The position numbers and the translations under genes are program-made. Positions 1,277 to 57,685 of a stretch of 64,000 nt of DNA are shown here, piece after piece. How positions within the stretch are numbered: position 1 is the first letter of the stretch; each line of letters starts with the position of its first letter. Below the pieces are notes generated by a model, which saw only the letters and a list, made by a program, of their open reading frames with translations, searched no databases and had not been told where the DNA came from. The stretch covers positions 288,001 through 352,000 of the forward strand of contig CM000436.1 of NCBI GenBank assembly GCA_000165345.1, written 5' to 3'.

Positions 1277-1817
1277 TTCCTGATTTTGATGAGGAAGTCC
1301 TTCAAATGAAAGTTCTCTTTTAACTTTCGATTAAATATTTATTAATAATTTATTTACTTACGTGTCAAATTTGACATGTCTGGCGCCTAAATGGGAATGT
1401 ATCTTTAATTTTACAAGGGTAAGAGGCGTAAAGAAATTTTAGGGTTAAAATAAAACGAGAAAAGATGAAGAGAGTTAAGAATGGAGAAAAATGAGCACTT
1501 TTGGTTAAGGTTTGTTCATGTTTAGATTAAAGGATGAATTTTTTTTTTAGATATATAAATATAGATATATATATTAAATTTTCCTTTTTGTTAGTTACAA
1601 TTTGGATTAAAAAAAAATAATTCAAAATAGTTGGCGCCATTTGTTTTAATATGTTTTCAATTGATAAATTCTTTAATTAATAGTATATATTAATATATTT
1701 TCAATTATAATAAAAATCAGGAAAGAAAACGCAGAATTAGCATGAAATTGTGTGTGAGACAAAAATAGTTAACTAATAACAAAGATAATCTAGAAGTGGG
1801 AAAAGGTGCATAAGAAG

Positions 1818-2987
1818 ATGGATGAAATAGGAACAAATAAAAACTATATAATAATATTACTTGGAAGACGGCATGTAAAAGCAGGATTTTCTAAAAAAAT
1901 GGAACCATTTGTAATTTTGCAGACAAGTGAGCTCTTTTCTAAGTGTGTGGATGTATTAGAAATATCAGAAAATGATAATACAAATTTTTCTAAAGAATCA
2001 AATTATGTGACAGTTTTTAAAGATCCCATAAACTGGAAAAGAAGCTGGAGTTCTTTGATACGTATGTTGTACACTGATTATTTGATGTCAAATCCTAAGG
2101 ATTATCCAGTAATACTATTAGAAAGACCATTTTTTCCAATAGAACTTTCAAATTATATTAAACAGATTCTATTGGAGAACTATCAGGTTCCTGGTGTTAA
2201 GAGAATTAGTGAGCCAATAGTAAGTCTTTTCACCACAGGATTTAAAACAGGAATAGTGGTTGATATAGGAACAAATGAGACAATAGTTTGTCCTATTTAC
2301 GATGGATATCCAATTGAATATAATGTTAAAATAATTAATTGTGGATATGATGATTTTAAGAAGAAATTTATGAATGAATTATTTTCTCAATATAAAGAAA
2401 AACCAGAAGAAGACATAATTAAAGAAATAAGTAACGATTTAATGGATGATATTATCTTTCAGAGCGGAATAGTAAACCACGAATTTAACGATAATATTGA
2501 AAGTAATCCCAATATTACAGATTTTACATATGAGAATTTAATAGTTAAAGATAAATACATTAATTTAGTTGTTGATAAAAATACCAGAACCAAACCATTC
2601 GAGATTTTCTTTGGAGATAAAGCATTTCCCAATTCAGAAGTCATTCATCATATTGTTTTAGATGGAATCATCCAAGTTTTATTAAATTCTAATATTGAAA
2701 CAAGAAAAGAGCTTTCTCAAAATATATTAATTTGTGGCGGGCTTGCATCCGTACCAGGTTTTGAAAGAAGAGTCTCTTCTGAACTTGGAGAACTAATTTC
2801 AAATGAAAAAATACTAAAACCTTTAGCAGATCATTTCTTCGTTACTTGTCCCCCCATTTCTCCTTTTATCAGATCATACTATGGTGCAGCTCTTATGTTA
2901 CAACATGAAAAAATTAATTATAATTTTGAAAACACTAATTTACAAAGAATTTCCTCTAAAATTAACTCAAAATTAGAAATTGCATAA
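1818..2987 (+). CDS. actin-related protein (ARP/actin-like, actin fold)
   Basis: The 393-aa ORF in the track begins at GTG 1806; the first ATG is at 1818. Actin-fold signatures are present: IVVDIGTNETIVCPIYDGYPIEY (compare actin GIVLDSGDGVTHxVPIYEGY) and ICGGLASVPGFERRVSSEL (compare LSGGTTMFPGIADRMQKEI). The protein is divergent, so the ARP subfamily is not assignable by eye. Confidence 0.7.
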   Translation: MDEIGTNKNYIIILLGRRHVKAGFSKKMEPFVILQTSELFSKCVDVLEISENDNTNFSKESNYVTVFKDPINWKRSWSSLIRMLYTDYLMSNPKDYPVILLERPFFPIELSNYIKQILLENYQVPGVKRISEPIVSLFTTGFKTGIVVDIGTNETIVCPIYDGYPIEYNVKIINCGYDDFKKKFMNELFSQYKEKPEEDIIKEISNDLMDDIIFQSGIVNHEFNDNIESNPNITDFTYENLIVKDKYINLVVDKNTRTKPFEIFFGDKAFPNSEVIHHIVLDGIIQVLLNSNIETRKELSQNILICGGLASVPGFERRVSSELGELISNEKILKPLADHFFVTCPPISPFIRSYYGAALMLQHEKINYNFENTNLQRISSKINSKLEIA

Positions 2988-3226
2988 ATGCCAATTACGT
3001 GGTGCATGCGCATGATTTGCGCGCCTCAAAGTTTCTCCCCACACTTTTGGAGGCAGTGTATAATTTTAGGAATAATTAGTCAAAAAAAGGGGAATTATTC
3101 GATATAGAAAATTTAAAAGCTGATTAAATAACTGGTCATTTTTATTACATATGATATCATGTAGAAACTGTGTATGACACTTTTTTTGGTTTTTCTTTTT
3201 TCTCCCAAAATTTCAACAAGGAAGAC

Positions 3227-5375: not shown

Positions 5376-5425
5376 TTGTCCACATGCAAATATGCAATGG
5401 CCATGGCGGGCAATTTTTGCCGCCC
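5376..5425. promoter_or_regulatory. promoter motif cluster: TTGTCCACATGCAAATATGCA plus an inverted pair of E2F-like sites (TGGCGGGCAAtttttGCCGCCC)
   Basis: A GC island in AT-rich spacer about 180-220 nt upstream of the 5600 ATG. GGCGGG and CCGCCC half-sites face each other. Confidence 0.5.
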
Positions 5426-5599: not shown

Positions 5600-6694
5600 A
5601 TGGGGAGAAAAAGTAGTGATGGATCCGGAATGGGAGCGGATATTCTGCATGCATTGGGGTTTAATAAGACCTCAAACTCAGATAATTCTGATACTGCAGA
5701 TAATAAAAGCAAGGGTCAGACAAAATTAGGTAGACTTAAATTTCCTAAGAATAAAAAAAAATCAAAAAAACATAATATTGAGGTGGATTCTGCTAAATTT
5801 AGCACAGAAATTGATTTAAAAGCAAATGACAATAGTGAGATAGAGCAAGCAAGTGAAAAGCCTACAAATTCAAGTTTAATGGATGTTCAATTATCTTTTG
5901 AAGGAGTTCTTACTGAGCTAGAAAAATCTTTGGAAAATATTAAAAAGAATGTAGATCATGCAGAATCTTGTTTGGAGAATATTTATATATCTGTAGATAA
6001 GCTGGAGAAGTTTTCTGAACTTTGTAAAGTGGAAAATAAAGATGTTATATTAGGTTTGCATAAACTAGTAAATGTACACAAAGGAGCAGCATTACTTTCA
6101 ACATTTTCTAGTGACCCTACATTTAAAAAGAATTGCGATTACAACGTAAGTGATGAATCAAAATCTGCTGAAAAAAGGCTTGAAAGCAAAAGATCTGGTG
6201 ATACTAATGTAGTGGAATCTGAGCATGAATCAAATGTTGCAACAGTAATAGAAACTCATAATTCAAATAACTCGGAAACTAAACCAGCTTTTGTTAAATC
6301 AAATTCTAAGACTTATAATGTAAAGAACAGTCTATCAAATAATGTTTTTAATAAGACAGAAATGGTTACACCTAGTAAAAGCAATAATAATTTTAATTCT
6401 GAATCTCCTAGTGCTAAAAGCACTATGAAAAGTGAACCAATTAATAAAGAATTGGAAATAACAAAAGATGTTAATGCTTCATATTCTGACAAAAATAATA
6501 GTGAAAAGTCACCAAAGGAAGGTAAAATTAGTAAAACTGAAAAATTTAAAGAGAAGCTTAACCTCAAAATGAGGAAGAAAAAAGACAGTACACATGAGTC
6601 CAACGATCCAGATTCAGCTGATGCAGAAAATAGTACTGGTATTCAAACCAGAATGGAAAGGTTTAAGAAAAAGTTTGACCGAAAAAGTAAATAA
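5600..6694 (+). CDS. hypothetical Lys/Ser/Glu-rich low-complexity protein
   Basis: A 364-codon ATG-initiated ORF is unlikely by chance in roughly 30% GC DNA. It is highly charged (KKKSKKH, KMRKKKD) and I recognise no domain in it. An inverted pair of E2F-like sites lies at 5404-5425, upstream. Confidence 0.5.
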   Translation: MGRKSSDGSGMGADILHALGFNKTSNSDNSDTADNKSKGQTKLGRLKFPKNKKKSKKHNIEVDSAKFSTEIDLKANDNSEIEQASEKPTNSSLMDVQLSFEGVLTELEKSLENIKKNVDHAESCLENIYISVDKLEKFSELCKVENKDVILGLHKLVNVHKGAALLSTFSSDPTFKKNCDYNVSDESKSAEKRLESKRSGDTNVVESEHESNVATVIETHNSNNSETKPAFVKSNSKTYNVKNSLSNNVFNKTEMVTPSKSNNNFNSESPSAKSTMKSEPINKELEITKDVNASYSDKNNSEKSPKEGKISKTEKFKEKLNLKMRKKKDSTHESNDPDSADAENSTGIQTRMERFKKKFDRKSK

Positions 6695-7051
6695 TTTCTA
6701 CTTTCTTTTCTCCATTATATTTTAATATAATGCATGTAGTCAACAACATGTGGCGCGTGTTTGGCGCTGGCGGGCTACTGTATGTCAAGAAAAAACTGAA
6801 TTTAGTGAATTAAATCTAATTAGGAAATAGCTTGAAACTAAAACGAAGGAGAATAATCTTAATTGAAAAGAATACTGGAATTTAGACAAAAGGTTATAGA
6901 TTTCTTGTATTTTTTTTAGTTTTAACTCCTTTATCTTTAATTTTATAATTTTGTTATTTTCAATTAAGCTTAATAGTTTTTGAGACCATAATTATTATAC
7001 GATAAGTCTATAAGGTTAGAAAAGTATAGAGAGAGCTTGAAAGGTTGGAAA

Positions 7052-10957: not shown

Positions 10958-11653
10958 GATTTTGTTTTAATTTCAAACTACTTAATTTACTTGGATAATT
11001 TTAGATAGATAGAAAAAGAGAGATAATGAAGGAAAAAGAAAAAAAAACAAGAAACAAATCAATTCAATATTAATCGCTATATTACTAGTCCATAGGAATA
11101 ATCTGTCAATTTTACGATTTGTACTCCAATTTTACTTTCTTTCATTATATTATTCATTTAAATATATTATTTCTATAATCTTATTCAACGAATCCTTTTT
11201 TTTATTTTTCTTTCAAATTTGATCTTAATTCATCTTTTTTTTTCCCCTATTGAAATTAACCGATATAATCAATAAATTAAAAAAAAGTTTCCCACATGCG
11301 GCGGGAAAATATTGGCGCCTCATGCCAGATTAATTTATATAATTTTATATAATGGATCATTAAGTTAAATAATAGTGCAGTTAATAATAATAAAAGTTAA
11401 TAATTGTAATATAATAATAATATTAATATTTGAAAAATTAGTATTAAAAATATATTTATATATAAATAAATATACATAAATATATAAACATTTATTTATA
11501 AATATATATTGGAGTTTAGTGGGAAAGAAAAAAGATCAAGTAAATAAGAAGGTTTGTAGAAGATTGTGTGCAAAGAATTTAAGTAATATTAGGATAGTGT
11601 AAATAAGTTTGGATATTATATATAAATATAGAAAAGTAAGTGTTTGGTAGAAA

Positions 11654-12313
11654 ATGAATGGGTTTAGATTGTGTGGTGATATGCTCCACCTTTTGAGCAT
11701 TTTTCTTCTTTTAAAAAAGTTAAGAAAGAGTAAGAGTTGTTTGGGTATTTCATGTAAGATGCAGGAAATCTATTTGATAGTATTTTGTAGTAGATATATT
11801 GATTTATTATGGAGTTTTGTATCAGTATATAATACTTTAATGAAAGTTGTATTTATTGCAAGTACTAGTTATTGTATATATTTAATGAGATATCAAATTC
11901 CAATCAGTAGAACTTACGATTCAAATGCAGATAGTTTTCCATATCATAAATATTTATTATTACCAGCCCTATTATTGGGTTTTATTACTTCTGAAAAATG
12001 GATAGTTTCTGAGATATTATGGAGTTTTTCAATCTGGCTTGAATCTGTTGCAATTTTGCCCCAATTAGTACTTTTACAACAATTAAGAGAAGTAGAAAAT
12101 TTAACATCAAATTATGTTGTAACTATGGGACTTTATAGATTATTTTATATTTTTAACTGGATTTACCGTTTCTATGCTCAACATTATGTAAACTGGGTTG
12201 GCTGGATTGGAGGACTAATTCAAACAGCAATTTATGTGGATTTCTTTTACTATTATGCAATGAGTAAATGGTATGGCCAGAAATTGATACTTCCTTATTC
12301 TATTGAGATTTAG
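11654..12313 (+). CDS. ERD2: ER lumen protein-retaining receptor (KDEL receptor, ERD2)
   Basis: The 219-aa protein begins MNGFRLCGDMLHLLSIFLLLKKLRKSKSCLGISCKMQEIYLIVFCSRYIDL, matching the ERD2 consensus [37 protein letters not shown]...TRYLDLF. It is a seven-TM hydrophobic protein of the right length. Confidence 0.9.
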   Translation: MNGFRLCGDMLHLLSIFLLLKKLRKSKSCLGISCKMQEIYLIVFCSRYIDLLWSFVSVYNTLMKVVFIASTSYCIYLMRYQIPISRTYDSNADSFPYHKYLLLPALLLGFITSEKWIVSEILWSFSIWLESVAILPQLVLLQQLREVENLTSNYVVTMGLYRLFYIFNWIYRFYAQHYVNWVGWIGGLIQTAIYVDFFYYYAMSKWYGQKLILPYSIEI

Positions 12314-12693
12314 TTCATGTAATTATTTATATTTTCTGCAGTATATATTGAATATTGAGTATAAGTAGAATAAATAAGATGAATTTCTAAGGAAGACTTT
12401 CAGATAAGTGAGGGGAGGGGGGAGGGAGGCATCGGAGTGTAGGTCAAATTCACGATCCTCTGCTTTTTTTTTTCTATTTTTTAATATTCTTTCTCTTCCA
12501 ATTAGCATCTAAACTGAGTATAAATTAAGAATCTCATTCTTTTAGTATCAAAAAGAGAAAAAGAAGAAATAAAGGAAGAGAAGTAAAAACATATATTACT
12601 TAGTATTAATTTGGACAAAGTTGAATAAAATAGAGAAAGAATTAGTGACCTATTATTTCATGTTCACTCTAATTAAAAAGTATATTTTCAATA

Positions 12694-13834: not shown

Positions 13835-13858
13835 TTAGGCGGGAAAGATTGCATGCAG
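13835..13858. promoter_or_regulatory. TTAGGCGGGAAAgattGCATGCAG upstream of the PAM16-like gene
   Basis: Lies about 475 nt upstream of the PAM16 ATG (13360, minus) and just 3' of the HBS1-like stop. Confidence 0.45.
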
Positions 13859-13962
13859 AAATGTAGTAGAGAATAACAATAATAACAGTGGTAATAGTAA
13901 TAATAATAATAGTAATAATAATAAAAATAATAATTAATTAATTAATTAAACAATTAAAAAAT

Positions 13963-15759: not shown

Positions 15760-15784
15760 TCGGCGCCAAACATTTGGCGCCGGT
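15760..15784. promoter_or_regulatory. tandem palindromic E2F-like sites TCGGCGCCAAAcattTTGGCGCCGG in a divergent promoter
   Basis: Lies between the HBS1-like gene (minus, ATG 15555) and the CRAL-TRIO gene (plus, ATG 16257). A second island, TGCATGCAGAGTACCGGCAT, lies at 16053-16072. Confidence 0.55.
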
Positions 15785-16256
15785 TCGGTGTAAAGTCTAA
15801 TTTTAATATTATTGCATTGAATAGTGCATGGAGGGAAAGAAAGAAAAAAAGATATTATGAAAATGGAAGTTAACAAGTAGATAAAGTAAAAATTGAAAAA
15901 TTTGTATATATTTATAAGTAAATTTATATTAGTTATAGATTTGTAATGGATTTATAAGAGAAAATAATCACAAATTAAAGAATAATAATTTAGACTTTAA
16001 AAAAAAAAAAATTATATTAAAAAAATTTTAGGGGTAAATATTAAAAAAAAAATGCATGCAGAGTACCGGCATTATAATTATTAGTATTTTTATTAAAAAA
16101 AAAACAAATAAATAAATAAATTTTTATTAATATAAATTTAGGATTAGAAATATTAATATAAATTAAAATTAACTAATTAAATAATAAATACAATTTCTTA
16201 GAATGATAATAAAGTTTAAAAACTTTGATTTACTTGATTAAAAAGTTAATACAAAA

Positions 16257-17556: not shown

Positions 17557-18881
17557 TGATTGATTGCTCAGTACCCTTAGATATTATATTAATTATTATA
17601 CTAAATTTATAGAATATGTTGCAACAAAAACAATATGATAGTTGAATAATTTATATATTAAATTCAGGCATTTGAGTTAGTTTTTTGTTTGTAATAAAAC
17701 ACTAATAATTGGATTAAAATATGTTTACTTTAAATAGTTTTAATTAATTAAAAATCAACCTGTTTATTTTACTCTTCTATTTCACACTTTTTTTCTACAT
17801 TTATTCTTTTCATTCTATATTATTTTTTTTCTATTATTAATTATTTTGATTCATAATTTACATGCAAAAAGGCGCCAAATAATTGGCGCCACAAACTTTA
17901 TGTCACAATTTAATAGAGGTTAGAACTAGTTGATAAAAAAGAAAAAAGAAAGAAAGAAAGAAATTAGAACACAATATATATGTATTTGGTAGAAAAGGTT
18001 GAGTTATACTTGGAATGCTATAAATATGAACAAGCAGTAAGTTTTAACAAATATATTTTAAATAGTGATCTATTTGTACATTTTCTTTTTTTTTTTGAAA
18101 ATCAAAATATCATATTAATTGAAAAGAGTATAATTAGATCAAATATATATAATAAATATTTATTGTTTTAACTTGTTATATTAGTGTAATTATAATTGAT
18201 TATAAATCAAAAGAATTAGCAAATATAGTAATGGAATGTATTAAGCCTGATTTTATTTTATCTAAAAATACGAAAGATTCAAGAAGAGAAATAATGGTAG
18301 ACAACACAGAATTAATAGTGTAAGTTAACTTTACATGCTTTTTGTTTTTCAGTTTATCAATAACTTCAGTGAAATAGAAAGTTCTAATGTTCAAATTCTA
18401 AGAAAAACAGTAAATGCAATATATGGAGCTTTAATTTTGTCGACTAAAACAATTGAAGAGTTTAGTAATATATAAGAGTGAATTCTTCACAATTTATATC
18501 TTTATTGAATTTGAGTATGAATCAAGTTCTTTAAAAATAGGTCTAATAAGTAAAAAGTATTAATAATAGATATTAATATTCCAATGAAATTTAATAACTT
18601 TTTAAAAATATATATCTTTATGTATGTAAATATATCTATATGCATAAATAAAAATGTTAAAGCTTGGAAATATATAATATTTATCTATTTACCTGTATTC
18701 ATACATATATATAGATAAATAGGTAAATATTTATTAGTTTTATTTCTTTCCACTTGTGAATGGATATTATCCGTGATTATATCAACTTTTCCCCTTCCCC
18801 TCATATTTGGCGCTCAAAGGTACCGTTGTATGTAATAATTTACTGAGGGAAAAAAAGGATTATTAAGCATTAAATAAATAA

Positions 18882-20199: not shown

Positions 20200-20970
20200 A
20201 TGCATTAATTAGTCATTTTGGTAGACGATATACTGCTACTATTACTACTATTCCTATATCTATTACCTATAATAATTTACTGTCTTTCTTCGAAAAATTC
20301 CCGGCTGCAAACATGCATTTTACCTGCATGCGTTTTTTTCAATGTGGACAAAAAAGGATAATGCTTACGTGTTTTTTTTAGTGGATAAAAAGAGTCTGAT
20401 ACCGGTATGCAAGTGCACACATTTTTTTTTTTTTAACTAATTTCATAATTTTTTTTTTTAAATCGATAATAAAAAATTAGGAATAGCAAATGAATTAATT
20501 GTTTTAATTTTTGTTATTAAGAAGAAATTAAATGGCAATGAGTGAATTAATATTTGTCGAGCAATGTGTTATAGTTATCAGAGATCTCTAAACAAAAATT
20601 CGAGTAATAATGAGGGGTGAAAGTGGATATTCATTATATATAAAGTATATAGGAGATATATATTATAAATATAATTTAAGATATAGTACTCTTCGACCGA
20701 TAATGGCGGGAAGATCTACTGAAGTTATTTAAATATTGCAAATTTGCACCATACCCACAGTGGAAATGAATACAAGGGAATAATTATTTTGAATAGAATT
20801 CGAAAAAACAAGTATAATAATAAAGAAAATAAATCTTGAGTGTAATTCAAGTATAAACAAATATTATTAATAAATAAATATATTTTTATTTATATATATT
20901 TATCTATATACATATTTGCATATATTCGGTGTTTCTGAAATACATTAATATAATTTTAAAAAACAAAAAG

Positions 20971-24632: not shown

Positions 24633-25918
24633 TATTGTAAACAGTTCTTTATATACTAGTGATAATTTTCCAATTTATTTCTAATAATAATTAAAATATT
24701 AATATTAATAATAATACTAATATTAATATTAATATACCCTTGATTAATTTTCTCTTTTTTTATCAACTAGATTATTATAAATTATATATTTATTTTCTTT
24801 AAATCACTATTTCATACAATATTACATCTTACATATTTCATTAATTAATTATATTATTATTTCTTTATTAAATTTTAATATTCGCCGGTACTAAATTAAT
24901 TTGTGGGAGCATTTCCCGCCCAACTCCTCATATTTCTATTATATCTTTTGCATTATAATTTATATATTTTATTAATACTATTTATCCCGCCAAATTCTCA
25001 AAATTGTGCTTGCTTATCAACCAAATGGAAAAATTACTATAAAGAAATAAGGTTAAAGAAACTAGAGTTTACAAAAAAAAGTAAAATACTGAAAGAATAA
25101 ATCCAAACCAGATTTTATTCATAATTTTCTATATATATTCTAGTCATGGAATGAAAGAAAAGGTCGAATTTTTATCTTAATATTCATATTTACTTGTTAT
25201 AATTAACATTTTTCCTTTAATTTATGTAAAATGTGCACATAATTCAATTATTCTGATTTTGCCGCCCAAATATTCTTTAATTTCTGTTGTGTGTATGTTT
25301 TGTTTTCGTGTAATTTGCATGAATGTATAAATAACAAAGGGCGGCAGCATGTAAAATTTTAATAAGATTACTAATTAAAAGCTATAATTATATTAAAAAA
25401 TATCTATAAAGTTAAACATAATGAAAGTAATATAAGATAATTTAATTTTTAAATTAAATATAAATATTATATTTTTTACTTTTTTCGAGAAAATAAAGTT
25501 AATTTTTATACAAAATATTCGAATATTGCAAATAATTTAATAAAATACAAAAATGCATGACTTTGCCGCCTACACCGGTATATAATTTTGAATTAAAAAA
25601 AAAATTACACGTAATATTAAGAGGAAAAGAATAGGATTTTCTCTTTATTGAAATAACGATGACGATTATTAATATTATCATTATTGTTACTATTACTGTT
25701 GTAAGTGTTACTAATATTAATTTAAGAGTTGTTAATTATTATTGATTTCAATGCATTCAATATAAATGCTATCAAATGATAATAATAAGAGTTTTTTATT
25801 AATATTAGTAATAAAGGAAGCTACATTAATAGTATTTTTCACTTTTTTAATAGTTTTTAGTAGGAAAAAAAAAGTTACAATTAGATTTCCTTCTACTTGA
25901 ATATTACTGTTGTTTTAC

Positions 25919-28580: not shown

Positions 28581-28783
28581 TTAGTTTTTAATGCTTTCAC
28601 TGAATATATTTATCAATAAACACTCTTTTCTTTGATACAATTGACTCACTACTTTTCTTACCTTTCAATGTTCTTATTTTTCTCTTTTAAAATCTTAAGT
28701 ATTATTATTATTTTTTTTTTTTGCCTTTACCCTTTTTTCTTGTATGATCACTCCCTGACACCTGGTATCTTATGATCATGCAC

Positions 28784-28826
28784 TTCCCGCCAAAATGCGT
28801 ATGCATGCAGAAAATCTGGCGCCAAT
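28784..28826. promoter_or_regulatory. TTCCCGCCAAAA - TGCATGCAG - TGGCGCCAA cluster upstream of coronin
   Basis: Lies about 385-430 nt upstream of the coronin ATG (28399, minus strand). Confidence 0.5.
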
Positions 28827-29197: not shown

Positions 29198-29904
29198 TTA
29201 ATTATAGTTAGTTTCAATAGATAATGATTCATTTAAAGAGTAATCAGAAAGATCATCAATAATATCGTCTAACTCATATAAATACCTTTCTTTTTTATTT
29301 TTCCATTTTTCTTTAAGTTCATTTAGAACTAATTTCTTTTTATTATTTATTATATTTCTTTTATCTATTGTAGTATTATTTAAAGAAGAATTCAAAGTTT
29401 CTTCTGAAATAGTTGATTCTATACTATTTTCAGCATGTAATGTTTCTTCTGATTTAGTTAAAGTTTCTTCCAATTGTTCATTTCCTGCTTTAACATGCAT
29501 TTCCATCCTTGTATATTGTAATAATCCACATGTTCTACATCTGCAAATACTAGTATCTAAAAATTTACAAATATTAAAGTTGAAAATTTTAATCTAGCTT
29601 AGAAAGTTCTTGGAATTAATCTCATTTCAAGACTTTCCCGCCATTTCTAAATTACTCTTACCTTTTGGTACTATGGTATATGCAATACATCTAGGACATA
29701 ATACTTTTATGCATTGAAAGGCTTTACCAAAATATGGATATCCAACAAAATTAATGCATTGACAGAAATAACATTTAATAAAAATACCCACTAATTATTT
29801 ATATATAGTTATAGGTTTTATAATAATTCTTATTTTTTTTTTTTTAACTTACTAACATATTCATTCTTAGTATTACATTCAGAGCAAACCACTACATTAA
29901 CCAT
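29198..29904 (-). CDS. small Cys-rich (multiple CxxC, zinc-ribbon-like) protein with an acidic tail, three exons
   Basis: Only the last exon is in the ORF track (29198-29506). I model the exons as 29853-29904 (ATG GTT AAT GTA GTG GTT TGC TCT GAA TGT ...TAT GTT A|GTAAGT), 29662-29790 and 29198-29556. The introns are 29791-29852 (62 nt, acceptor AATTAG) and 29557-29661 (105 nt, donor GTAAGA, acceptor TTTTTAG). The phases are consistent (1/1). The 179-aa product is MVNVVVCSECNTKNEYVMGIFIKCYFCQCINFVGYPYFGKAFQCIKVLCPRCIAYTIVPKDTSICRCRTCGLLQYTRMEMHVKAGNEQLEE...DDIIDDLSDYSLNESLSIETNYN. An E2F-like site (TTTCCCGCCATTT, 29634-29646) lies inside the modelled intron 2, so an alternative two-gene model is possible. 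Confidence 0.4.
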
Positions 29905-30088: not shown

Positions 30089-30144
30089 TTTTCCCGCCAT
30101 TTGTGAGGTATCTAAAATTTGCATTTCCACGCTTTGGCGCCAAT
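30089..30144. promoter_or_regulatory. E2F-like pair TTTTCCCGCCATTT and TTTGGCGCCAAT in a divergent promoter
   Basis: Lies between the Cys-rich gene (minus, ATG 29904) and the HECT ligase (plus, ATG 30410). Confidence 0.55.
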
Positions 30145-36059: not shown

Positions 36060-36424
36060 TTTTAAAAAAATGTTCAGATGATAATTATTTAATTTCAATT
36101 TTCTTTAAAAGTTTTATTATATTAATTTCAATATTACCATATCACACCTTAATATTTCTCAAAAGAATTAATGTTTATATGTTAAATATTATAAACACAT
36201 GTACCAATAAATGTTTATAAATTTAAATACATAAGTGCATTAACAGATATTGAATATTTGTATTTATTTGATTATTCTTATTTTTGTTATTTCTTCCTTT
36301 GAATTTGCATTGATTTAATTTTAAAGTCAAATTTAGAAATTTTTGGCGGGAATTCAACCGTTTTTTTTTTTAAATTATTAATTGTCAATTATTTTCAATG
36401 AATTTATAAATTAAATATAAATAT

Positions 36425-39272: not shown

Positions 39273-39656
39273 TTATTATTATTATTATTATTATTTTCCT
39301 TCAAGTTTTTTTAATTATTAACTTAATTTTTCTTCTTCAATTAAAAAAAAAAACAAGAATAAAAGAAAATCTTTTTTAGTTACTTAAAATATTAATGTTA
39401 TTGTATTTGTTGTCCACATAAAAAATGCATTCGTAATTTTACTTGCAATTTTGCATGCATGTAAAAAATGACGTAATTAGTTATTTAATAAAAGAAATTT
39501 TTGAGTGTGCCGGACCCTCCCGCCAATTCCACTACCAAGTAATAAATCAAATAATAAGAAATTATAACAAATAATTAAAAAAAAAAAGAAAAATGAAAAG
39601 AAAGAAAAGATAGAATGACCCAAGAAATATATATTTAAAAAATAAAATCAAAATTT

Positions 39657-42022: not shown

Positions 42023-42092
42023 ACCGGCATTCTGACAGTGTGGGGAAATGCTAAAACACCGGTACTAACATTTGCAGAAATTTGGCGCCAAA
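42023..42092. promoter_or_regulatory. ACCGGCA / ACCGGTAC / TTTGGCGCCAAA motif cluster in a divergent promoter
   Basis: Lies between TLK (minus, ATG 41849) and POLE (plus, ATG 42306). It is a GC island in an otherwise AT-rich spacer. Confidence 0.55.
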
Positions 42093-42305
42093 CACACACG
42101 TAATTATTAGTAATAAAGAATTAAAAAATATATAGAAAACAGATTTACTTTTAATGAACTATAAGCAAATAAAACTAAGGCATTTATAGATATTAGGCCA
42201 AGTTCAGTAATGCCTTATGGCATTCTTAGGTCGAAATTAACTGAAAAGTTGGTAGATATTTGAAAGTTTGGAAATAACTAAGTTAGGAATTATAACACCA
42301 GTATA

Positions 42306-50492: not shown

Positions 50493-50831
50493 ATTATGAA
50501 TTTCATAGATAACTAGTTAAAAAAAAAGAAATAGAACGGAATTATTTGTTATATATAACTTACTATAATCTAAATCTATCCTTAAACTACCTATTCTGAC
50601 TTTGTTTTCAATTCGAAGATAAAAACAAATATATAAAAAAACAATTTAATGCATGTGGGTTTGGCGGGCCATTGCGTGTATGAACCTGCATGTAGTGGCG
50701 GTAACATCTTTGCCTAACATTTTCTTTCTCCCATATGATAATAGTAACAATAATAATAATAATAATAATAATATTGATAATATAATTCTCTTTATCTACT
50801 TAGTGTTAGTCTTGTCTTGATTTTTGATAGC

Positions 50832-53800
50832 TTAGGAGTCAACAATTTTGCTTTGCACCAATTTGTGTACGTTGCATAAAAAGTCAACATAAGTAGTTTC
50901 AAATCCATATGCATCTTCAACCAACATAGCCTTGAACTTGGCTTCAATATTCTGAGAAACGGGAGAAACTATAACAACAGGCATATAACAATTCACAGAG
51001 AATCTATCGTTTCTAATTTGTTGTACCACATTTGAGATACGTTTAGAAATACCAATATTGGATTCCATTGTAGGTAAATAGTCCTCAGGTGGAAAAGAAA
51101 GTTTAGTAAAGTTTTCAAAATTGATGGAAGTGACTCCGAAAATTTCTGAAATAACTTTAGAATCAACTTGGGGTCCAAAATAAAGATAGATTTCTTTCCC
51201 ATTTTCTAGGACATAAATTCCATCAGAAAGTATTCTTTCTCCAGAACAAGCAATTGAATGATTGAGCCAATATCTAGATATAATAGGAGCATCAGATGAT
51301 TGGAAGGAGCTAGTATTAGAAGCATTCATTCCCATCATATTATTGGTATTATTTCCAGTATTGATAGATGAATCATTTTGAAAGGTAAGCTGGTAAGGAA
51401 GTCCAACAGATTCAAGCTTTTGCAACTCATTATTAGATTCGGATAAAATAAGAGAATGATGCAAAGGATAGAGTCTTGGGTAAAGAGTTGCTGTAGTGAA
51501 GCTTACTGAAGCATAAAGAAGCTCATATAAACCAACAAGCTGTTCTGATACAGTAAATTCCAAAACAGTATTTAGTGGCATTAACGAAGGATGCTTGAAT
51601 AATGATGAAACATAAATCAAAGTAAGTTTAAGAGAATCAGGAAGAATGAGCTGGCCAGTTGATGATGTATTTGCACAGTGTTCTCTATAAGAAAATAGCA
51701 TATCGATAATTGAATTCAGAGTTTCTTGCTTCCAAGCTGTGAGAATTGAGCTGGAGTTTTTGTTAGTAGAAAATGGAAGACCAGGAACTACTGATGTAGC
51801 TGCAGCTATAGCTCCTGTTGAACTTACAGAAGTAGATCCAGAAGAACCAGAAAAACCTCTTTGACCTTTTGAAACAATATGATGAGCAGCCATTCTAGCA
51901 TATATATTAATAATTGGTTCAATAGAAGCATATCTAAAAGCTGTGGTAATACTAGTAGTAACTGGAATAGATATGGTAAGCACTCTCAACAGTCTTTGTC
52001 GTTTATCTTTGCATGTATATAAGCAAGCAGCTTGTAGAAAGACATTTTTTCTTTGTTCCAAATTCTCCTCATGACGAAGTAGAAATGCTATTGCAGTATT
52101 ACTATCCAACTTGGGAATTTGAAAGGCTGAAAGGTCAGGAGTCGGACCACCAGCAGTCCATGGTGCATAAATCTTAGAAACTGCAATTCCTCTAGAGCAA
52201 CGCAGTTTAAATGTACAATCATAGGCCACATTTTGCACAAAGAATATACTATATAAAGTTTGATAAATATCTCTGTAAATCTTCTCAAAAGGAAATTCTG
52301 TAAATAAACGTAATTTACCACCAGTGTGTTGAGATAAATATGCAAATGTACTTGTAGGTACAGAGTTGGCGCCAAAAGCCGACCCCGCATTTGCATTTGG
52401 ACTAGTAAGACCTTGACCTTGCTCTCCTGTTGAATAATCTCCTTGAATAATTTTTGTTACAATAAATGTGTCAAGGGAGACATTGATTTCTCTGCAAGCT
52501 TGAACCATTGTATCTAGCTGTTGAATATTATGTACCAAATATCCAGAAACAAATCCTAATGATGGTTTCATTCCTTTAGAAGTTTTTCGAGGTGGGGACT
52601 TGGGAGCCACATTGGTTTCCTTTGTGTTAATGGCAGCAAATCCAATATTTGGTACTGAACTGACAAAGGAAAAGATAGAACCGGTCGAATTTCTTGCTTT
52701 AAAAATTTGAGTAGCAAGAGAAACTGCTGAAAAGTATGCATTATGTGGAGTTGAGTGAGGGGCTATGAGAGATGGAATACGATCAATGAGTTCATGGAGA
52801 AATTCCAATCCTTGTGCAACTGGGACACAAAGCTCAGATAAAGGACAAGGTAGGAATGGCTCCATTATGTCTGATACTACGCACATTTTGATTGGAGGTT
52901 TAGAGTTTTCATTCAAATTCTGATATGGGAATAAAAGGATTTCTCTTGAATAAAGTATAAGAGTAACATTAGATTCTGGTGAACTTTGGGCCAGTTGAGT
53001 AAAAATATGTTTAAGACAATAAAGGATAAGATTTGTAACATTTCCTTGTAATGCCATAGAAGAAGCTTCAATTACAAAGCAGTAGCAGGGTAGTTCTGGG
53101 GTAGTTGTAACACCAAGACTAGCTGGGGCAAAGTAGTCTACAACTCCATGATATATTTCAGGATAGTTATTTTGATCATCATTTGGAGATTGATAGCTTT
53201 GTGTCTTGATTTGTGATTGTAGTAATCTTAAGTAGTCCATGGGAATATCAAATGTATGCCCACAAAAGTTACAAAGACACTGACTACCATTTTGAGAAAC
53301 GCATGTAAATGGATTTGCATATGCTCTACATCTAAGACACCTGATTGGCTCTATAGTAGAGGAGGAGTTTACAATAGGTACCGGATTTTCAAAATCATTC
53401 AATAGAGGGAAAGGTTGAATAATTGCTGCACATGGAAGTTTCATAGATTGCAAAATTGAGTGTTGACTTGGAATTTGGTTTAAAGTTAACTTATAAAACT
53501 TTCCTGTTGCATTACCTCTATCTATCAACATCGAATGAGGTTCGGCCAAGGAATTTGGCGGAAGTAAATACTTGTCACTCTCATAGATACAACAATCCTT
53601 ATCAATTATGTTTCCAAACACTGGCCTTGGTATCTGGGATGGATCCACTCTAGATTGTACTGGTTTAGTTAAAGATGTTACAAGATTTGTTGAATTTTCG
53701 GCCAAATGTTGTTGTTGTTGTTGTTGTTGTTGATATTGCTGTTGTTGAGTCTGCAAATTTGTCTGATACTGACCCTGATGGAACTGTGTGGAAGAACCAG

Positions 53801-54284: not shown

Positions 54285-54592
54285 TATTTATTTAACTTTC
54301 TGGGTATTAAGTGTTAATAACCCATACAGTAGAGGATTATCTTTGCTCCTAATAGTATTTAATTATTCTCCCCAAATAAAATAAAGAAAGAAATGTAGAG
54401 AAAATATTCTCCTTAATTAATTTAACCATACAGTTTATTAACTAGGTTGTTGCTATTATTGTTAAATTTTTTTTATTAATTAATTTTAATATTCTTTTTT
54501 GATTAATTTTCTATTTTCCCCTCTTTCTAATATGCATTTACTATTATTTCAATTATTATTATTCCCACATTAAAGTAATAAATAAATTGCCC

Positions 54593-54606
54593 AATAGGCG
54601 GGAATT
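54593..54606. promoter_or_regulatory. AATAGGCGGGAATT E2F-like site in the Sec24 / 55210-gene divergent promoter
   Basis: Further motifs in the same spacer are ATACCGGTG at 55008-55016 and TTTTTTTTCAATGTGGAAGG at 55040-55059. Confidence 0.45.
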
Positions 54607-55209
54607 CTTATTTAAATTATTTAGTGGGGAAAATTAATTTAAAAAAAAATGAAAAAAATGCTTTCGTTTATTCATTCTTAAATATTAAAAAAAAAATTAT
54701 AATATATATAAGTTTCTATAATGAAATTGATGGATAATTGTTCTTTGATTTTGTGATTAATAAAATCTGATAATAAATAGAAAGTATTATTGAACTTAAA
54801 TATTAAAATTTTATATTATTTTCTTTCAATGTTTTGCTGTTATAAATAGATTTGTTTCTAGTAAAATATATTTATATAAAGGAAAATTATTTACTATTAA
54901 AGAAAGATCTACCTGAATTTTTAAAATAATTTCTAATTAAAAAAAAAAATTTTTATTCACAATATTTATTGGTAGCAAATATGTGGGGAAATGTTTCTAG
55001 TGTCCTATACCGGTGTTTGTTGGCATTGCATACGTGTATTTTTTTTTTCAATGTGGAAGGGGAACTTAGGTGTAAAGGCAATGCAAAAAAAAAATAAAAA
55101 TAATATTATAGAGTAAGCAGAGAATAGTTATAAATTTTAAGTATTTTTTTTTTTTCTAATAAATAATTAATAAGGTAATTAACAAAATAAAATTAGTAAT
55201 TAGATTAAA

Positions 55210-57363
55210 ATGCTAGATGGGAAAATCAAGAAGCCTGCTCATCAAAAATTACATGAAACAGTTGGAAAACATAACAGTTACATGAAAAATGTTGTATATG
55301 GTGACGAAAATATAACTGAATTAAATAAAATGGAATATCCAAGAAACACACTTTTGAGAAATAATGGATTACCAGAAAAACTTGAAAAGCATTTAAACAA
55401 TGAAAAAGAAAGAGAATTAGAATCATTATATGAAGAAAATCGACAATTATTAATGGAAATTTCAAAACTACGTAAAACAAATCAATTGTTAGTCAAAGAT
55501 GTAAATAAGAAAAATGAAATTATTGATAGTCTTGATTCAAGTCTTGTTGAAGTTGAAGAAAAACTGGAAAATGCAAAAAAGAAGAATTGGAATATGTATA
55601 ATGAAATTTTGAATAGAGAAAGAAAGAATCAACAACAAAATAATACCAGAGAACATAATACAGATTCAAATAATTCTGATGATGAAACTTATGAGCTTAA
55701 GGCCTCTAAAATTGGAACTTTTAATACAGTAAATATAATAAAATCTAATAATAAAAAAGATTTAACTAGCAATAGACCAAAGTCTACAAGTATCTCTACT
55801 TCAACAGAAAATACCAAATGGCTACAAGACATGATTTTAGAATCTTTAAGTGAAAAACATGTGGAAAAGAAAGCATATGATAATTTAAAATATGAAGTTG
55901 AGAAGCTTCAGAAAGAAATTTATTCAATGCAAACTGACTTATTGAAAAGTAATATACATGATGAAGTCATTCAAGAACCAATTGTTGATCATTCTAATGG
56001 AAAGTTATCAGTCTTCCATTCCACTAGCTCTTCAACCAATAATTCTTCAAGCATTATTGGAACATCTGTCAGCGGCTTTAATACCATCAATAATACTTTC
56101 CAATCTACTTCTCTCGCTCAAGAACTAAAGGAGGTCAACAATACTACAACTAATAGCTCCTTTGACTCTTCACAGAAATCTGAAGAAATTCAACAAGAAT
56201 CTGAAAAGGAAAATGAACAAGAAAATGTTGAATCTATTCCTCCAAGAAGTGTTCACATATTAATGGGTAAGACTTTCTCTAGAGACAATAACATTGACAA
56301 AAAAATCAACAAATACAAAAATGGTCCTAGATATAATATTCAGAAATCTGATAATGACAATTTTATTCATCCAACTTCTAATTATTACAGATCTGATATT
56401 CAAACATTCCAAACTCAAATTAATCAACAACCAAGTATAGCTACTAACGGAAATAACTATTATTACTACTCATACTCTAATTTGAATAATAAACATCAAA
56501 ATTACAACAACCTTGATCTAAAGAACTATTCTCATATCTATAATACTAATTACACTAATCCGTTTTTAAGTGTATCTACGAATGATAATTATAATAATAT
56601 GAATAGGCCTTTACAAGCATTCCAAAACAATAACTATTCTATTTATAACTCAATTAGAAGACCCATAAACCTTGCTGAATATAGAGCTAATTATAAAAAC
56701 CAACCGCATATGGACAACTTAGTAAATCACCATCCCCTAATGACTAACTCCATGTTAGATTCAGGCTTAAACCCTCAAAACTTAAAACAAGGATTTATAC
56801 AACATCAATACTCTAAAATTAATTTTCCAGAATCAAATTTAAACTCAATTCCAAGTTTAAATCCATTCTATACACAAACTATTAACTTAAATAATTATTC
56901 AAATTTACCATTTCCACCATTTCAAGTCAAAATTACACAAATATTCAGGAGAAATAGAAACAATTCTGTTCCTCCTCCAAGACCTAAAAATGAATTAAAT
57001 TCTGAAAAAGTTGTTAATGAAGAAAATCATCCAGTATCTAACAAAATTGATCTACCCGATTCTAATAATGATTCAGATAAAGATCTCCCACAGGGATATA
57101 TTCGTTTCAAAACTTCTATTTCTTCTCCATTGAGCCAGGATGATTTCTTTTCCCCAATCTCAGGAAATGTTAATAATATCTGTCCTTGCGATAAAGCCAT
57201 TGATTCATGCGCAGCCATATCAAAAAAGCTAATTCAAAATAACTATGAGAAGAAAAACAAGATGAGATCATCGTCAACATCTCTTCCACTCCCGATTCCT
57301 TTAATCGCAAAAAATAACCAATTTCAGGGAACATCTGGTCTACTCAAGTTTAGTAAATACTAG
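55210..57363 (+). CDS. hypothetical protein: N-terminal coiled coil, long Asn/Ser/Tyr-rich low-complexity remainder
   Basis: A 717-codon ATG ORF. Heptad-like segments are present (EKLEKHLNNEKERELESLYEENRQLLMEISKLRKTNQLLVKD, KKAYDNLKYEVEKLQKEIYSMQTDLLK). I recognise no catalytic motif. Confidence 0.5.
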   Translation: MLDGKIKKPAHQKLHETVGKHNSYMKNVVYGDENITELNKMEYPRNTLLRNNGLPEKLEKHLNNEKERELESLYEENRQLLMEISKLRKTNQLLVKDVNKKNEIIDSLDSSLVEVEEKLENAKKKNWNMYNEILNRERKNQQQNNTREHNTDSNNSDDETYELKASKIGTFNTVNIIKSNNKKDLTSNRPKSTSISTSTENTKWLQDMILESLSEKHVEKKAYDNLKYEVEKLQKEIYSMQTDLLKSNIHDEVIQEPIVDHSNGKLSVFHSTSSSTNNSSSIIGTSVSGFNTINNTFQSTSLAQELKEVNNTTTNSSFDSSQKSEEIQQESEKENEQENVESIPPRSVHILMGKTFSRDNNIDKKINKYKNGPRYNIQKSDNDNFIHPTSNYYRSDIQTFQTQINQQPSIATNGNNYYYYSYSNLNNKHQNYNNLDLKNYSHIYNTNYTNPFLSVSTNDNYNNMNRPLQAFQNNNYSIYNSIRRPINLAEYRANYKNQPHMDNLVNHHPLMTNSMLDSGLNPQNLKQGFIQHQYSKINFPESNLNSIPSLNPFYTQTINLNNYSNLPFPPFQVKITQIFRRNRNNSVPPPRPKNELNSEKVVNEENHPVSNKIDLPDSNNDSDKDLPQGYIRFKTSISSPLSQDDFFSPISGNVNNICPCDKAIDSCAAISKKLIQNNYEKKNKMRSSSTSLPLPIPLIAKNNQFQGTSGLLKFSKY

Positions 57364-57685
57364 ACATCTACTCTCATTGTATCCTAGCGTGACTCAACAT
57401 ACGACTCCCCTTCCCATATCCATCTTATAACTATCTATTTACTGCTAGTCAAATCTACAATCTAAAAGCAACATACAGTATAAAAACCTTAATTAATACA
57501 CAATTATTATTCGTTGTTTTTTAATATAAAATTCATACTCCTAAAAATTCTCCTGTAGAGCTCAACATGAACCCTTCTGTCCATTATACTACCTACAAAT
57601 TATTAACCGCCACATTTTCGAAAGCGCCAAATCGCATGCATTTTCATGTGGACAATTCAATACCGGTATTTATTTAGCTGGTTTT

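What the first reader, a model, noticed from the sequence alone, without database searches (positions are those of the whole stretch)
1381..57632. Near-universal GC-rich promoter islands: E2F-like GGCGGGAA / TTGGCGCCAA plus G-box GCATGCA in almost every 5' spacer
In AT-rich spacers the only GC-rich islands are copies of [T]TTGGCGCCAA[A], GGCGGGAA[A]/TTTCCCGCC and GCATGC[AG]. They occur upstream of nearly every gene: 1381, 1631, 3003-3025, 5404-5425, 6751-6774, 11298-11319, 13835-13858, 15760-15784, 17870-17892, 18796-18808, 20296-20330, 20704-20712, 24912-24994, 25261-25348, 25563-25570, 28784-28826, 29634-29646, 30089-30144, 36342-36354, 39453-39528, 42081-42092 and 54593-54606. Divergent gene pairs share one island (1277-1805, 15556-16256, 29905-30409, 41850-42305, 54285-55209). 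This matches the E2F/DP-type and AP2 G-box-type motifs reported as over-represented upstream of Cryptosporidium genes. It supports both the taxonomic assignment and the gene orientations used here. The sites can also be used as anchors to find missed genes.
Basis: partly seen in the sequence, partly recalled or inferred. Interest (0 to 1): 0.55.

Follow-up and report, generated by a model that had tools for sequence, protein, structure and literature searches.

The report
Known Cryptosporidium E2F-like promoter motifs
The GC-rich islands between genes in this Cryptosporidium parvum chromosome segment are real, evolutionarily conserved copies of the E2F-like (TTTGGCGGGAAA / TTGGCGCCAA) and ApiAP2 (TGCATGCA) promoter motifs that were already described for this parasite, so the finding is correct but not new.

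Summary
The window is Cryptosporidium parvum, shown by exact protein matches on a 1.34-Mb chromosome. All 22 claimed coordinates carry the stated motifs.

- **Enrichment.** E2F-like cores (tttGGCG[GC][GC]aaa) occur at 2.5/kb in 5' spacers and 0.135/kb in genes (OR 18.6, p=7e-15). TGGCGSS has 30 matches against 0.69 expected from shuffles.
- **Coverage.** All 17 complete 5'-containing spacers hold at least one E2F-like element. 17 of 19 GC-rich runs in spacers are E2F-like.
- **Position.** Sites lie about 100-480 nt upstream of ATGs.
- **Conservation.** The sites are conserved at orthologous positions in C. ubiquitum, C. canis and C. felis, and partly in C. bovis and C. andersoni.

- GCATGCA is the ApiAP2 'AP2_1' site, not the G-box. 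The G-box is G.GGGG.
- GCATGC occurs in only 6 of 17 5' spacers.
- The 29634 site is intronic.
- Two convergent 3'-3' spacers also carry conserved islands.

The phenomenon is published (Mullapudi 2007; Oberstaller 2013, 2014; Li 2021; a 2025 ATAC-seq preprint), so it is already known.

Minor extras that may be new: E2F-like sites paired 13-14 bp apart, and a conserved ACCGGT / ACGT / ATGTGGA / TGTGGGG module.

The parts
1381..1387 (.). E2F-like site TGGCGCC in the divergent spacer between the Gar1-domain gene (-) and the actin-like gene (+).
1631..1640 (.). Palindromic E2F-like site TTGGCGCCAT, 185 nt upstream of the actin-like ATG.
3003..3025 (+). TGCATGC (AP2_1-like) plus TTTGCGCGCC (E2F-like), 5' of Sec1.
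5404..5425 (.). Paired E2F-like sites GGCGGG-N8-GCCGCC, 14 bp apart, 5' of the 364-aa gene. The conserved TCCACATGCA lies just upstream at 5379-5388.
6751..6774 (+). Cluster of three E2F-like cores (GGCGCG, GGCGCT, GGCGGG), 5' of Nrap.
11298..11319 (+). Paired E2F-like sites GGCGGGAAAATATTGGCGCC (14 bp apart), 5' of the KDEL receptor gene.
13835..13858 (.). GGCGGGAAAGATTGCATGCA: an E2F-like site plus AP2_1, 5' of the small intron-containing gene 12694-13360(-). Both motifs and their spacing are conserved in four species.
15760..15784 (.). Inverted pair GGCGCCAAA-CA-TTTGGCGCC in the divergent HBS1 | CRAL-TRIO spacer. It is invariant in C. parvum, ubiquitum, canis and felis.
16053..16060 (.). 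TGCATGCA (AP2_1) in the same divergent spacer, about 200 nt upstream of the CRAL-TRIO ATG. Conserved in four species and in C. bovis.
17870..17892 (.). Pair GGCGCCAAATAATTGGCGCC (14 bp apart), 5' of the small Pcc1 gene at 18026-18475(+).
18796..18813 (+). CCCCTC plus TTTGGCGCT: a weak E2F-like half-site, 5' of the cytidylyltransferase gene (ATG about 19080).
20296..20410 (+). CATGCA / TGCATGC, ATGTGGAC, TTACGTGT and ATACCGGTAT module downstream of the cytidylyltransferase stop. ACCGGT and GCATGC are conserved in C. ubiquitum.
20704..20712 (+). TGGCGGGAA, 266 nt upstream of the 520-aa gene.
24912..24994 (-). Two E2F-like sites (TTTCCCGCC and CCCGCCAAA), 283 and 354 nt upstream of the amino-acid transporter ATG (24632, - strand).
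25261..25348 (.). GCCGCCCAAA and GGGCGGCA: degenerate E2F-like or GC-box-like sites in the long 1286-nt spacer.
25554..25615 (.). TGCATG, TTGCCGCC, ACACCGGTAT and ACACGTAAT module.
28777..28826 (.). CATGCA, TTCCCGCCAAA, TGCATGCA and TGGCGCCAA island, 5' of the coronin-like gene (-).
29634..29646 (-). TTTCCCGCCATTT inside intron 2 of the small Cys-rich gene 29196-29902(-). It is intronic, not intergenic.
30089..30144 (.). TTTTCCCGCCATTT and TTTGGCGCCAAT in the divergent spacer between the 179-aa gene (-) and the HECT gene (+).
36342..36354 (+). TTTGGCGGGAATT, 286 nt upstream of the mitochondrial-carrier gene (-).
39452..39528 (.). TGCATGCATG, TGACGTAAT and CCCGCCAATT island, 5' of the 925-aa gene (-).
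42039..42103 (.). TGTGGGGAAATG (true G-box), ACACCGGTAC, TTTGGCGCCAAA and ACACGTAA in the divergent kinase | DNA-polymerase-epsilon-like spacer. The block is conserved in C. canis.
50650..50692 (.). TGCATG, TTTGGCGGG and TGCATG island in a convergent (3'-3') spacer. The block TGCATGCAGGT...GCCCGCCAAACCC is conserved in C. canis.
54593..54606 (+). AATAGGCGGGAATT in the divergent Sec24 | 717-aa-gene spacer. TTCCCGCCTAT is conserved in C. canis.
54982..55057 (.). Block of about 75 nt holding TGTGGGGAAATG, ATACCGGTG, TTGGCATTGCATACGTGT and ATGTGGAA. It is nearly identical in C. canis, against 63% background identity.
57620..57670 (.). GCGCCAAA, GCATGCA, ATGTGGACAA and ATACCGGTAT island in the convergent spacer just 3' of the clathrin heavy-chain stop. 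The TGTCCACATG, TGCATG and GGCGC parts are conserved in C. canis.

Best explanation
These are short cis-regulatory elements of the compact C. parvum promoters.

The dominant element, tttGGCG[GC][GC]aaa, has two forms: the palindromic TTGGCGCCAA and the asymmetric TTTGGCGGGAAA. It is an E2F-type site, most likely bound by the parasite's E2F/DP winged-helix heterodimers. It marks and opens the promoter about 100-480 nt upstream of nearly every start codon, and in head-to-head gene pairs it serves both directions.

TGCATGCA is a second, less frequent element. It is bound by ApiAP2 proteins (cgd2_3490-type) and adds stage-specific control.

- **Shown here:** motif identity, extreme enrichment in 5' spacers, depletion from coding sequence and from most 3'-3' spacers, a preferred distance from the ATG, and purifying selection on the exact sequences across Cryptosporidium species.
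- **Inferred or taken from the literature:** which proteins bind, and that binding drives transcription.
For: - **Site matrix.** 29 spacer sites give T-rich positions -3 to -1, an invariant GGCG core, then [GC][GC], then A-rich positions +6 to +8. This is the canonical E2F consensus TTTSSCGC...AAA.
- **Enrichment.** The strict core set is 18.6-fold denser in 5' spacers than in genes, p=7e-15. TGGCGSS has 30 matches against 0.69 expected.
- **Coverage.** 17 of 17 complete 5' spacers are positive. The clathrin 5' spacer has its pair just beyond the window edge.
- **Position.** No core lies within 100 nt of an ATG. The median distance in tandem spacers is 293 nt.
- **3'-3' depletion.** There are 0 cores in 5,954 bp of convergent spacers against 50 in 24,781 bp of 5' spacers, across six species at the HBS1 locus.
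- **Conservation (aligned).** Synteny is kept in C. ubiquitum, canis, felis, bovis and andersoni. In the C. parvum/ubiquitum/canis/felis alignments, motif positions are invariant in 57% of columns against 18% for other spacer positions, p=3e-15.
- **Conservation (alignment-free).** In the five spacers held for all four species, every shared 7-mer with at least 3 G/C is E2F-like, GCATGCA, GTTGGGG-type or CATGTGGA-type. The non-orthologous control averages 0.05 shared 7-mers.
- **Other species.** E2F core counts pooled over the non-parvum loci are 55 in spacers against 9 in genes, OR 21.
- **Literature.**
  - E2F-like motifs lie upstream of 163 of 200 expression clusters, 2,379 genes (PMC3734150).
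  - C. parvum encodes two E2F and two DP proteins (PMC12246861).
  - Sporozoite ATAC-seq peaks are dominated by E2F motifs, and more than half are annotated as bidirectional promoters (bioRxiv 10.1101/2025.01.17.633476).
  - cgd2_3490 binds [T/C]GCATGC[A/G] on protein-binding microarrays.
Against: - No direct binding of any Cryptosporidium E2F/DP protein to these sites has been reported. The 2013 paper itself calls for ChIP-seq, and the 2025 review says most components lack validation.
- A motif upstream of essentially every gene cannot by itself explain differential expression. It looks more like a general promoter or open-chromatin element than a cell-cycle switch.
- Two convergent spacers carry conserved islands, so the element is not strictly tied to annotated 5' ends.
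- In tandem spacers the sites sit on average mid-spacer (fractional position 0.55). Proximity alone therefore does not assign them to the downstream gene.
- Four sites are GGGCGG-like and could equally fit a zinc-finger GC-box.
- TSS and chromatin data could not be examined here.
Confidence: 0.8

Rival explanations
1. The islands are 3'-end elements (termination, polyadenylation or insulation) of the upstream gene rather than promoter elements. In tandem spacers they often lie closer to the preceding stop codon than to the next ATG.
For: - The fractional position in tandem spacers averages 0.55, and several sites lie within 30-125 nt of the upstream stop: 3020, 6752 and 13838.
- The 13838 island keeps a short distance to the HBS1 stop in four species, while its distance to the next ATG varies from 222 to 604 nt.
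- Islands at 50650-50692 and 57620-57670 lie in 3'-3' spacers and are conserved.
Against: - All five divergent spacers, which contain no 3' ends, carry the motif.
- Convergent spacers, which contain two 3' ends, lack it in 5,954 bp across six species at the HBS1 locus.
- Published ATAC-seq places E2F motifs in upstream regulatory peaks.
Confidence: 0.07
2. The GGCGGG / GGGCGG-type sites are GC-boxes bound by C2H2 zinc-finger (Sp/KLF-like) or other non-E2F proteins. The resemblance to E2F sites is coincidental.
For: - Several sites read GGGCGG on one strand: 5418, 24914, 25260 and 25338.
- C. parvum is listed with 27 C2H2 zinc-finger proteins (PMC3734150 Table 2).
- No binding experiment links E2F/DP to the motif.
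Against: - About a third of the cores are GGCGCC, which is not a GC-box.
- The T3 / A3 flanks match the E2F consensus.
- Motif-comparison tools in the 2025 preprint matched E2F1 and E2F6.
- Cryptosporidium is reported as the only apicomplexan genus that retains E2F/DP, and the motif is reported as absent from T. gondii orthologous upstream regions.
Confidence: 0.08
3. The islands are a compositional or structural feature, such as nucleosome-excluding GC spikes, replication-origin marks or relics of a dispersed repeat. No sequence-specific factor is involved.
For: They are nearly the only GC-rich runs in spacers of about 22% GC.
Against: - Conservation applies to the exact sequence, not to GC content. 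It holds in C. canis and C. felis, whose spacers are 31-43% GC.
- Dinucleotide shuffles and Markov models do not reproduce the counts.
- There is no extended flanking similarity of the kind expected from a repeat family.
Confidence: 0.03

Closest known systems
Cryptosporidium parvum 'E2F-like' upstream motifs (Oberstaller et al. 2013, motif 3 DTTGSCGCCH and motif 4 TTTGGCGGGAAV; E2F1/E2F6-type motifs in sporozoite ATAC-seq peaks, 2025 preprint)
   Same: Same organism, same sequences and same upstream location. They are near-ubiquitous: 163 of 200 clusters in the paper, and 17 of 17 spacers here. They occur in bidirectional promoter regions.
   Different: Nothing essential differs; this window is an instance of the published phenomenon. 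Added here are cross-species footprinting beyond C. hominis and the recurrent pairing of sites 13-14 bp apart.
Metazoan and plant E2F/DP sites (TTTSSCGC; the overlapping inverted site TTTCGCGCCAAA of the DHFR promoter; paired inverted sites of the adenovirus E2 promoter). This comparison rests on general knowledge, not on anything tested here.
   Same: The consensus is the same, including the T and A flanks. Palindromic and asymmetric (GGCGGGAA) variants both exist. The sites are promoter-proximal and occur in pairs.
   Different: In animals the sites mark a cell-cycle regulon controlled by pRb, whereas here they precede nearly every gene. No pRb orthologue is reported in C. parvum. Binding is unproven in this organism.
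ApiAP2 'AP2_1' site TGCATGCA (cgd2_3490, cgd1_3520; P. falciparum PF14_0633)
   Same: The palindrome is identical, it is enriched in spacers, and it is conserved across species here at 13850 and 16053.
   Different: It is present in only 6 of 17 5' spacers. The TGCATG core is equally dense in 3'-3' spacers.
Apicomplexan G-box (5'-G.GGGG-3' / DTGTGGGG, bound by cgd8_810)
   Same: True copies (TGTGGGGAAATG) occur in the 42039 and 54982 modules and are conserved in C. canis.

Membership tests
E2F/DP-type binding site | Sequence matches TTTSSCGC, ideally with a T-run on one side and an A-run on the other. | tested here: met
   The matrix of 29 spacer sites has GGCG invariant (28-29 of 29), then [GC][GC]. 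T is the majority at positions -3 to -1 and A at +6 to +8.
E2F/DP-type binding site | Promoter-proximal location: enriched upstream of genes and depleted in coding and 3' regions. | tested here: met
   Density is 2.51/kb in 5' spacers against 0.135/kb in genes. 17 of 17 5' spacers are positive. There are 0 cores in 5,954 bp of convergent spacers at the HBS1 locus in six species. Two convergent spacers elsewhere are exceptions.
E2F/DP-type binding site | Purifying selection on the site at orthologous positions. | tested here: met
   The sites are invariant across four species, while flanking spacer positions are invariant in only 18% of columns.
E2F/DP-type binding site | The organism encodes E2F and DP proteins. 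| not tested
   None is encoded in this window. The literature lists cgd1_1560, cgd6_1430 (E2F) and cgd7_3650, cgd8_1850 (DP) (PMC12246861).
E2F/DP-type binding site | Physical occupancy by E2F/DP, and dependence of transcription on the site. | not testable with these tools
   This is not reported in the literature read. Only ATAC-seq motif enrichment is available.
ApiAP2 AP2_1 site | Palindrome [T/C]GCATGC[A/G]. | tested here: met
   There are 6 TGCATGCA against 0.46 expected. GCATGC occurs 7 times in spacers and 5 times in genes. The copies at 13850 and 16053 are conserved in four species.
ApiAP2 AP2_1 site | Present in almost every 5' spacer, as the finding claims. | tested here: not met
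   GCATGC is in 6 of 17 5' spacers and TGCATG in 10 of 17. TGCATG density is 1.83/kb in 5' spacers and 2.81/kb in convergent spacers.
Apicomplexan G-box | Sequence 5'-G.GGGG-3' (DTGTGGGG / KKGRGGGGRR). | tested here: not met
   GCATGCA does not match. The published tables list it as AP2_1 and list the G-box separately. True G-boxes are at 42039 and 54982.

The most novel reading that the evidence does not exclude
Beyond the known single motifs, Cryptosporidium promoters may use a fixed higher-order grammar that has not been described.
1. E2F-like sites are paired back-to-back at 13-14 bp centre-to-centre (GGCGSS-W8-SSCGCC). This suggests cooperative binding of two E2F/DP dimers.
2. A conserved module combines ACCGGT(AT), an ACGT-core (bZIP-like) site, ATGTGGA(C) and TGTGGGGAAATG.
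3. The same islands sit, conserved, in some 3'-3' spacers. There they would drive unannotated antisense or non-coding transcripts, or act as boundaries.
Probability: 0.3. Interest if true: 0.4.

Novelty: already known. Interest (0 to 1): 0.2.

Why it matters
The result confirms that a tool-free reader can recover a genuine regulatory code from raw sequence. It also confirms that the window is C. parvum.

Biologically it restates a known peculiarity. Cryptosporidium alone among apicomplexans keeps E2F/DP and places E2F-type sites in front of most genes. This points to a general promoter-opening role rather than a cell-cycle regulon.

The practical value is modest. The sites help place promoters and small intron-containing genes in a very compact genome. 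The cross-species footprints pick out specific sites (15762/15776, 42084, 13838/13850) as good targets for the mutational and ChIP tests the field still lacks.

Tried and rejected
- **Raw k-mer contrast, spacer against CDS.** It was dominated by A/T-rich words because spacers are about 22% GC. I replaced it with a Markov-corrected test.
- **Non-coding RNA genes.** The Rfam gathering scan and the tRNA scan of the whole window found nothing, so the conserved blocks are not known RNA genes.
- **Published antisense lncRNAs from the convergent-spacer islands.** The held part of the Li et al. 2021 supplement lists only two lncRNAs in this gene range. Both are antisense to other genes, and none corresponds to the clathrin, 717-aa, Sec24 or polymerase genes. 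The file is truncated and my mapping of gene numbers is inferred, so this is inconclusive.
- **ACCGGT as a known Cryptosporidium motif.** I found no relevant paper, and it is absent from the 2013 and 2014 motif papers. Outside C. parvum the enrichment is only marginal (5 in spacers against 5 in genes, p=0.05), so I do not claim it as established.
- **Bankier et al. [quoted passage not shown]
- **Orientation of the asymmetric GGCGGGAA relative to the gene.** By my reading of the table it is 8 same against 2 opposite in tandem spacers, which is too few to conclude anything.
- **ORFs in the long 24633-25918 spacer.** Only ORFs of 65 aa or shorter are present, so there is no evidence of a missed protein gene there.

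Full report
**Identity of the window.** The window is 28% G+C and very gene-dense. The 364-aa and KDEL-receptor proteins encoded at 5600-6694 and 11654-12313 are exact matches to Cryptosporidium parvum Iowa II and ATCC proteins. They lie on chromosome-scale records of about 1.34 Mb: CP029787.1, CP141125.1 and CM109968.1. I transferred the NCBI gene calls of those records to window coordinates, which gave 23 genes. These include three that a plain ORF scan misses or truncates because of introns: a 114-aa gene at 12694-13360(-), Pcc1 at 18026-18475(+), and a cytidylyltransferase starting near 19080. The model gives 5 divergent, 12 tandem and 5 convergent spacers, plus a partial 5' spacer at the right edge.

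**Check of the observation.**
- With the tool's own dinucleotide shuffles, TGGCGSS occurs 30 times against 0.69 expected, and TGCATGCA 6 times against 0.46.
- Unbiased word statistics with a second-order Markov background for the spacers put GGCGCCAA (11 against 0.11), GGCGGGAA (9 against 0.11), TGGCGGGA, GCGCCAAA and GCATGCA (11 against 0.69) directly behind the poly-A, AT-repeat and AAT-repeat words.
- The strict E2F-like set (GGCGGG, GGCGCC, GGCGCG, GCGCGC) is 18.6-fold denser in 5'-containing spacers than in genes: 2.51/kb against 0.135/kb, p=7e-15.
- All 17 complete 5'-containing spacers have at least one E2F-like element.
- The missing 18th case is the clathrin promoter. Its pair lies about 200 nt beyond the window edge and is conserved in C. 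canis.
- 17 of the 19 G+C-rich runs in spacers are E2F-like.

**Anatomy.**
- Aligning the 29 spacer cores gives tttGGCG[GC][GC]aaa. GGCG is essentially invariant, the next two bases are GG or CC in most sites, and the T and A flanks are clear.
- Cores lie 106-480 nt from the nearest ATG in most spacers (median 293 in tandem spacers), and never within 100 nt.
- Four spacers carry two cores exactly 14 bp apart, separated by an 8-nt A/T spacer: 5405/5419, 11300/11314, 15762/15776 and 17871/17885. Random placement in the same spacers gives 0.09 such pairs.
- The orthologous spacers of C. ubiquitum, C. canis and C. felis carry pairs 13-14 bp apart.

**Position relative to gene ends.** The finding's own refutation test was equal density in coding sequence and 3' regions.
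- Coding sequence is strongly depleted.
- For 3' regions, the HBS1 locus in six species has 50 cores in 24,781 bp of 5' spacers and 0 in 5,954 bp of convergent spacers.
- The bias is not absolute. The convergent spacers 50493-50831 and 57364-57685 each hold an island (TTTGGCGGG flanked by TGCATG; GCGCCAAA-GCATGCA-ATGTGGACAA-ATACCGGTAT). The key blocks of both are conserved in C. canis.
- Li et al. 2021 reported E2F/DP1 and AP2_1 motifs as the top motifs within 100 bp upstream of C. parvum lncRNAs, most of which are antisense and 3'-biased. That is the most economical reading of these islands.
- I could not find matching lncRNAs for these genes in the held part of their supplement.

**Evolutionary evidence.**
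- I fetched the syntenic loci of C. ubiquitum, C. canis (two loci), C. felis, C. bovis and C. andersoni through homologues of HBS1 and Sec24. Gene order is conserved.
- The same motifs recur in the same spacers, in the same order and at similar distances. One example is TGCATGCA about 180-200 nt from the CRAL-TRIO start together with a GGCGCC pair about 200 nt from the HBS1 start. This pattern holds in C. parvum, ubiquitum, canis and felis, and is recognisable in C. bovis.
- In four-species alignments, motif positions are invariant in 48 of 84 columns, against 815 of 4,517 for other spacer positions (p=3e-15).
- Without any alignment, in the five spacers held for all four species every shared 7-mer with at least 3 G/C is E2F-like, GCATGCA, GTTGGGG-type or CATGTGGA-type. 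The non-orthologous control averages 0.05 shared 7-mers.
- Pooled over the non-parvum loci, E2F-like cores number 55 in spacers against 9 in genes (OR 21). The signal persists in C. canis and C. felis, whose spacers are 31-43% GC, so it is not a side effect of AT-richness.

**What it is.** These are cis-regulatory promoter elements.
- The dominant one is an E2F-type site; the second is the ApiAP2 AP2_1 palindrome.
- The sequence-level and evolutionary parts of this statement are shown here.
- Binding by CpE2F/DP is inferred from three things: the match to the E2F consensus, the presence of E2F and DP genes in this genus alone among apicomplexans, and E2F-motif dominance in sporozoite ATAC-seq peaks.
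- No ChIP or mutational evidence exists in the literature I read.
- The element precedes essentially every gene here, and expression clusters carrying it peak at all time points. It therefore behaves more like a general promoter or open-chromatin element than a cell-cycle switch.

**Rivals.**
- A 3'-end or terminator role is contradicted by the motif's presence in all divergent spacers and its absence from most convergent ones.
- A zinc-finger GC-box fits a few GGGCGG-type sites. It does not fit the GGCGCC class or the T/A flanks.
- A purely compositional feature is contradicted by sequence-exact conservation.

**Comparison with the literature and novelty.** The phenomenon is published.
- Mullapudi 2007 found a GGCG-core motif upstream of glycolysis genes.
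- Oberstaller 2013 found E2F-like DTTGSCGCCH and TTTGGCGGGAAV in 163 of 200 clusters, AP2_1 BGCATGCAH, and the G-box G.GGGG bound by cgd8_810.
- Oberstaller 2014, Li 2021, a 2025 preprint and a 2025 review extend this.
- The finding is therefore already known.

**Extras not in the finding.**
- E2F-like sites are paired 13-14 bp apart.
- A recurrent module holds ACCGGT(AT), ACACGT/ACGTAA, ATGTGGA(C) and TGTGGGGAAATG at six places.
- One 75-nt block of this module (54982-55057) is nearly identical in C. canis, against 63% background identity.
- ACCGGT is not in the published motif tables I read.
- ATGTGGA resembles the 'unknown' A[T/A]G[T/A]GGA.A motif noted upstream of Class II oocyst-wall protein genes.
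- These rest on one 64-kb window plus about 120 kb of orthologous sequence. They need genome-wide testing.

Noticed in passing
window 5405/5419, 11300/11314, 15762/15776, 17871/17885; L018, L019, L020 orthologous spacers: E2F-like cores occur as pairs exactly 14 bp centre-to-centre (GGCGSS, an 8-nt A/T spacer, SSCGCC). Four pairs are seen against 0.09 expected. Orthologous pairs are 13-14 bp apart in C. ubiquitum, canis and felis. The 2013 motif paper mentions spacing only as something still to be studied.
   Followed up: partly
window 20342-20410, 22834-22945, 25554-25615, 42039-42103, 54982-55057, 57634-57670: A recurrent composite module holds ACCGGT(AT), an ACGT-core site (ACACGTAA / TTACGTAA, bZIP-like), ATGTGGA(C) and TGTGGGGAAATG. 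ACCGGTAT occurs 8 times in spacers against 0.17 expected. ACCGGT is conserved at orthologous positions in C. ubiquitum or C. canis for 4 of the 5 sites that have data. It is not in the published C. parvum motif tables I read.
   Followed up: partly
window 54982-55057 (L023 about 9270-9340): A block of about 75 nt, 150-230 nt upstream of the 717-aa gene, is nearly identical between C. parvum and C. canis, while the spacer as a whole is 63% identical. There is no Rfam or tRNA hit. It is longer than a single factor site.
   Followed up: partly
window 50650-50692 and 57620-57670: E2F-like plus TGCATG(C) islands lie in convergent (3'-3') spacers and are conserved in C. canis. They are candidate promoters of unannotated antisense or non-coding transcripts. 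No matching lncRNA was found in the truncated supplement of Li et al. 2021.
   Followed up: partly
window 22534-23243: This convergent spacer has no E2F-like core. It does have a dense cluster of TCCACAT, ATACCGGTAT, TTACGTAA, ATGTGGAT, TGCATG and CATGCA at 22834-22945. The ACCGGT and GCATGC parts recur in the orthologous C. ubiquitum spacer.
   Followed up: partly
   Followed up: yes
window 12410-12426: GAGGGGAGGGGGGAGGGA is the only long G-run in a spacer. It is G-box/GAGA-like and lies in the convergent KDEL-receptor | 114-aa-gene spacer. A published lncRNA (Cp_lnc_48) appears to be antisense to the KDEL-receptor gene, if my inferred mapping of gene numbers is right.
   Followed up: no
window 5646-5653 and 52366-52375, 53833/53863: There are motif copies inside annotated coding sequence. 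TGCATGCA lies 46 nt after the annotated ATG of the 364-aa gene, which may mean the true start is further downstream. TTGGCGCCAA and two GGCGGG lie inside Sec24; the GGCGGG copies fall 420-450 nt into the gene and read CCCGCC on its coding strand.
   Followed up: no
L008/L012 compared with L009/L011 (window 30410-35095, 35127-36059, 36425-39272): Public annotations of the same C. parvum chromosome disagree. The HECT gene is split into 627 + 878 aa in one record and is 1561 aa in others. The mitochondrial carrier is 206 or 310 aa, and the 925-aa gene is 694 aa in one record.
   Followed up: no
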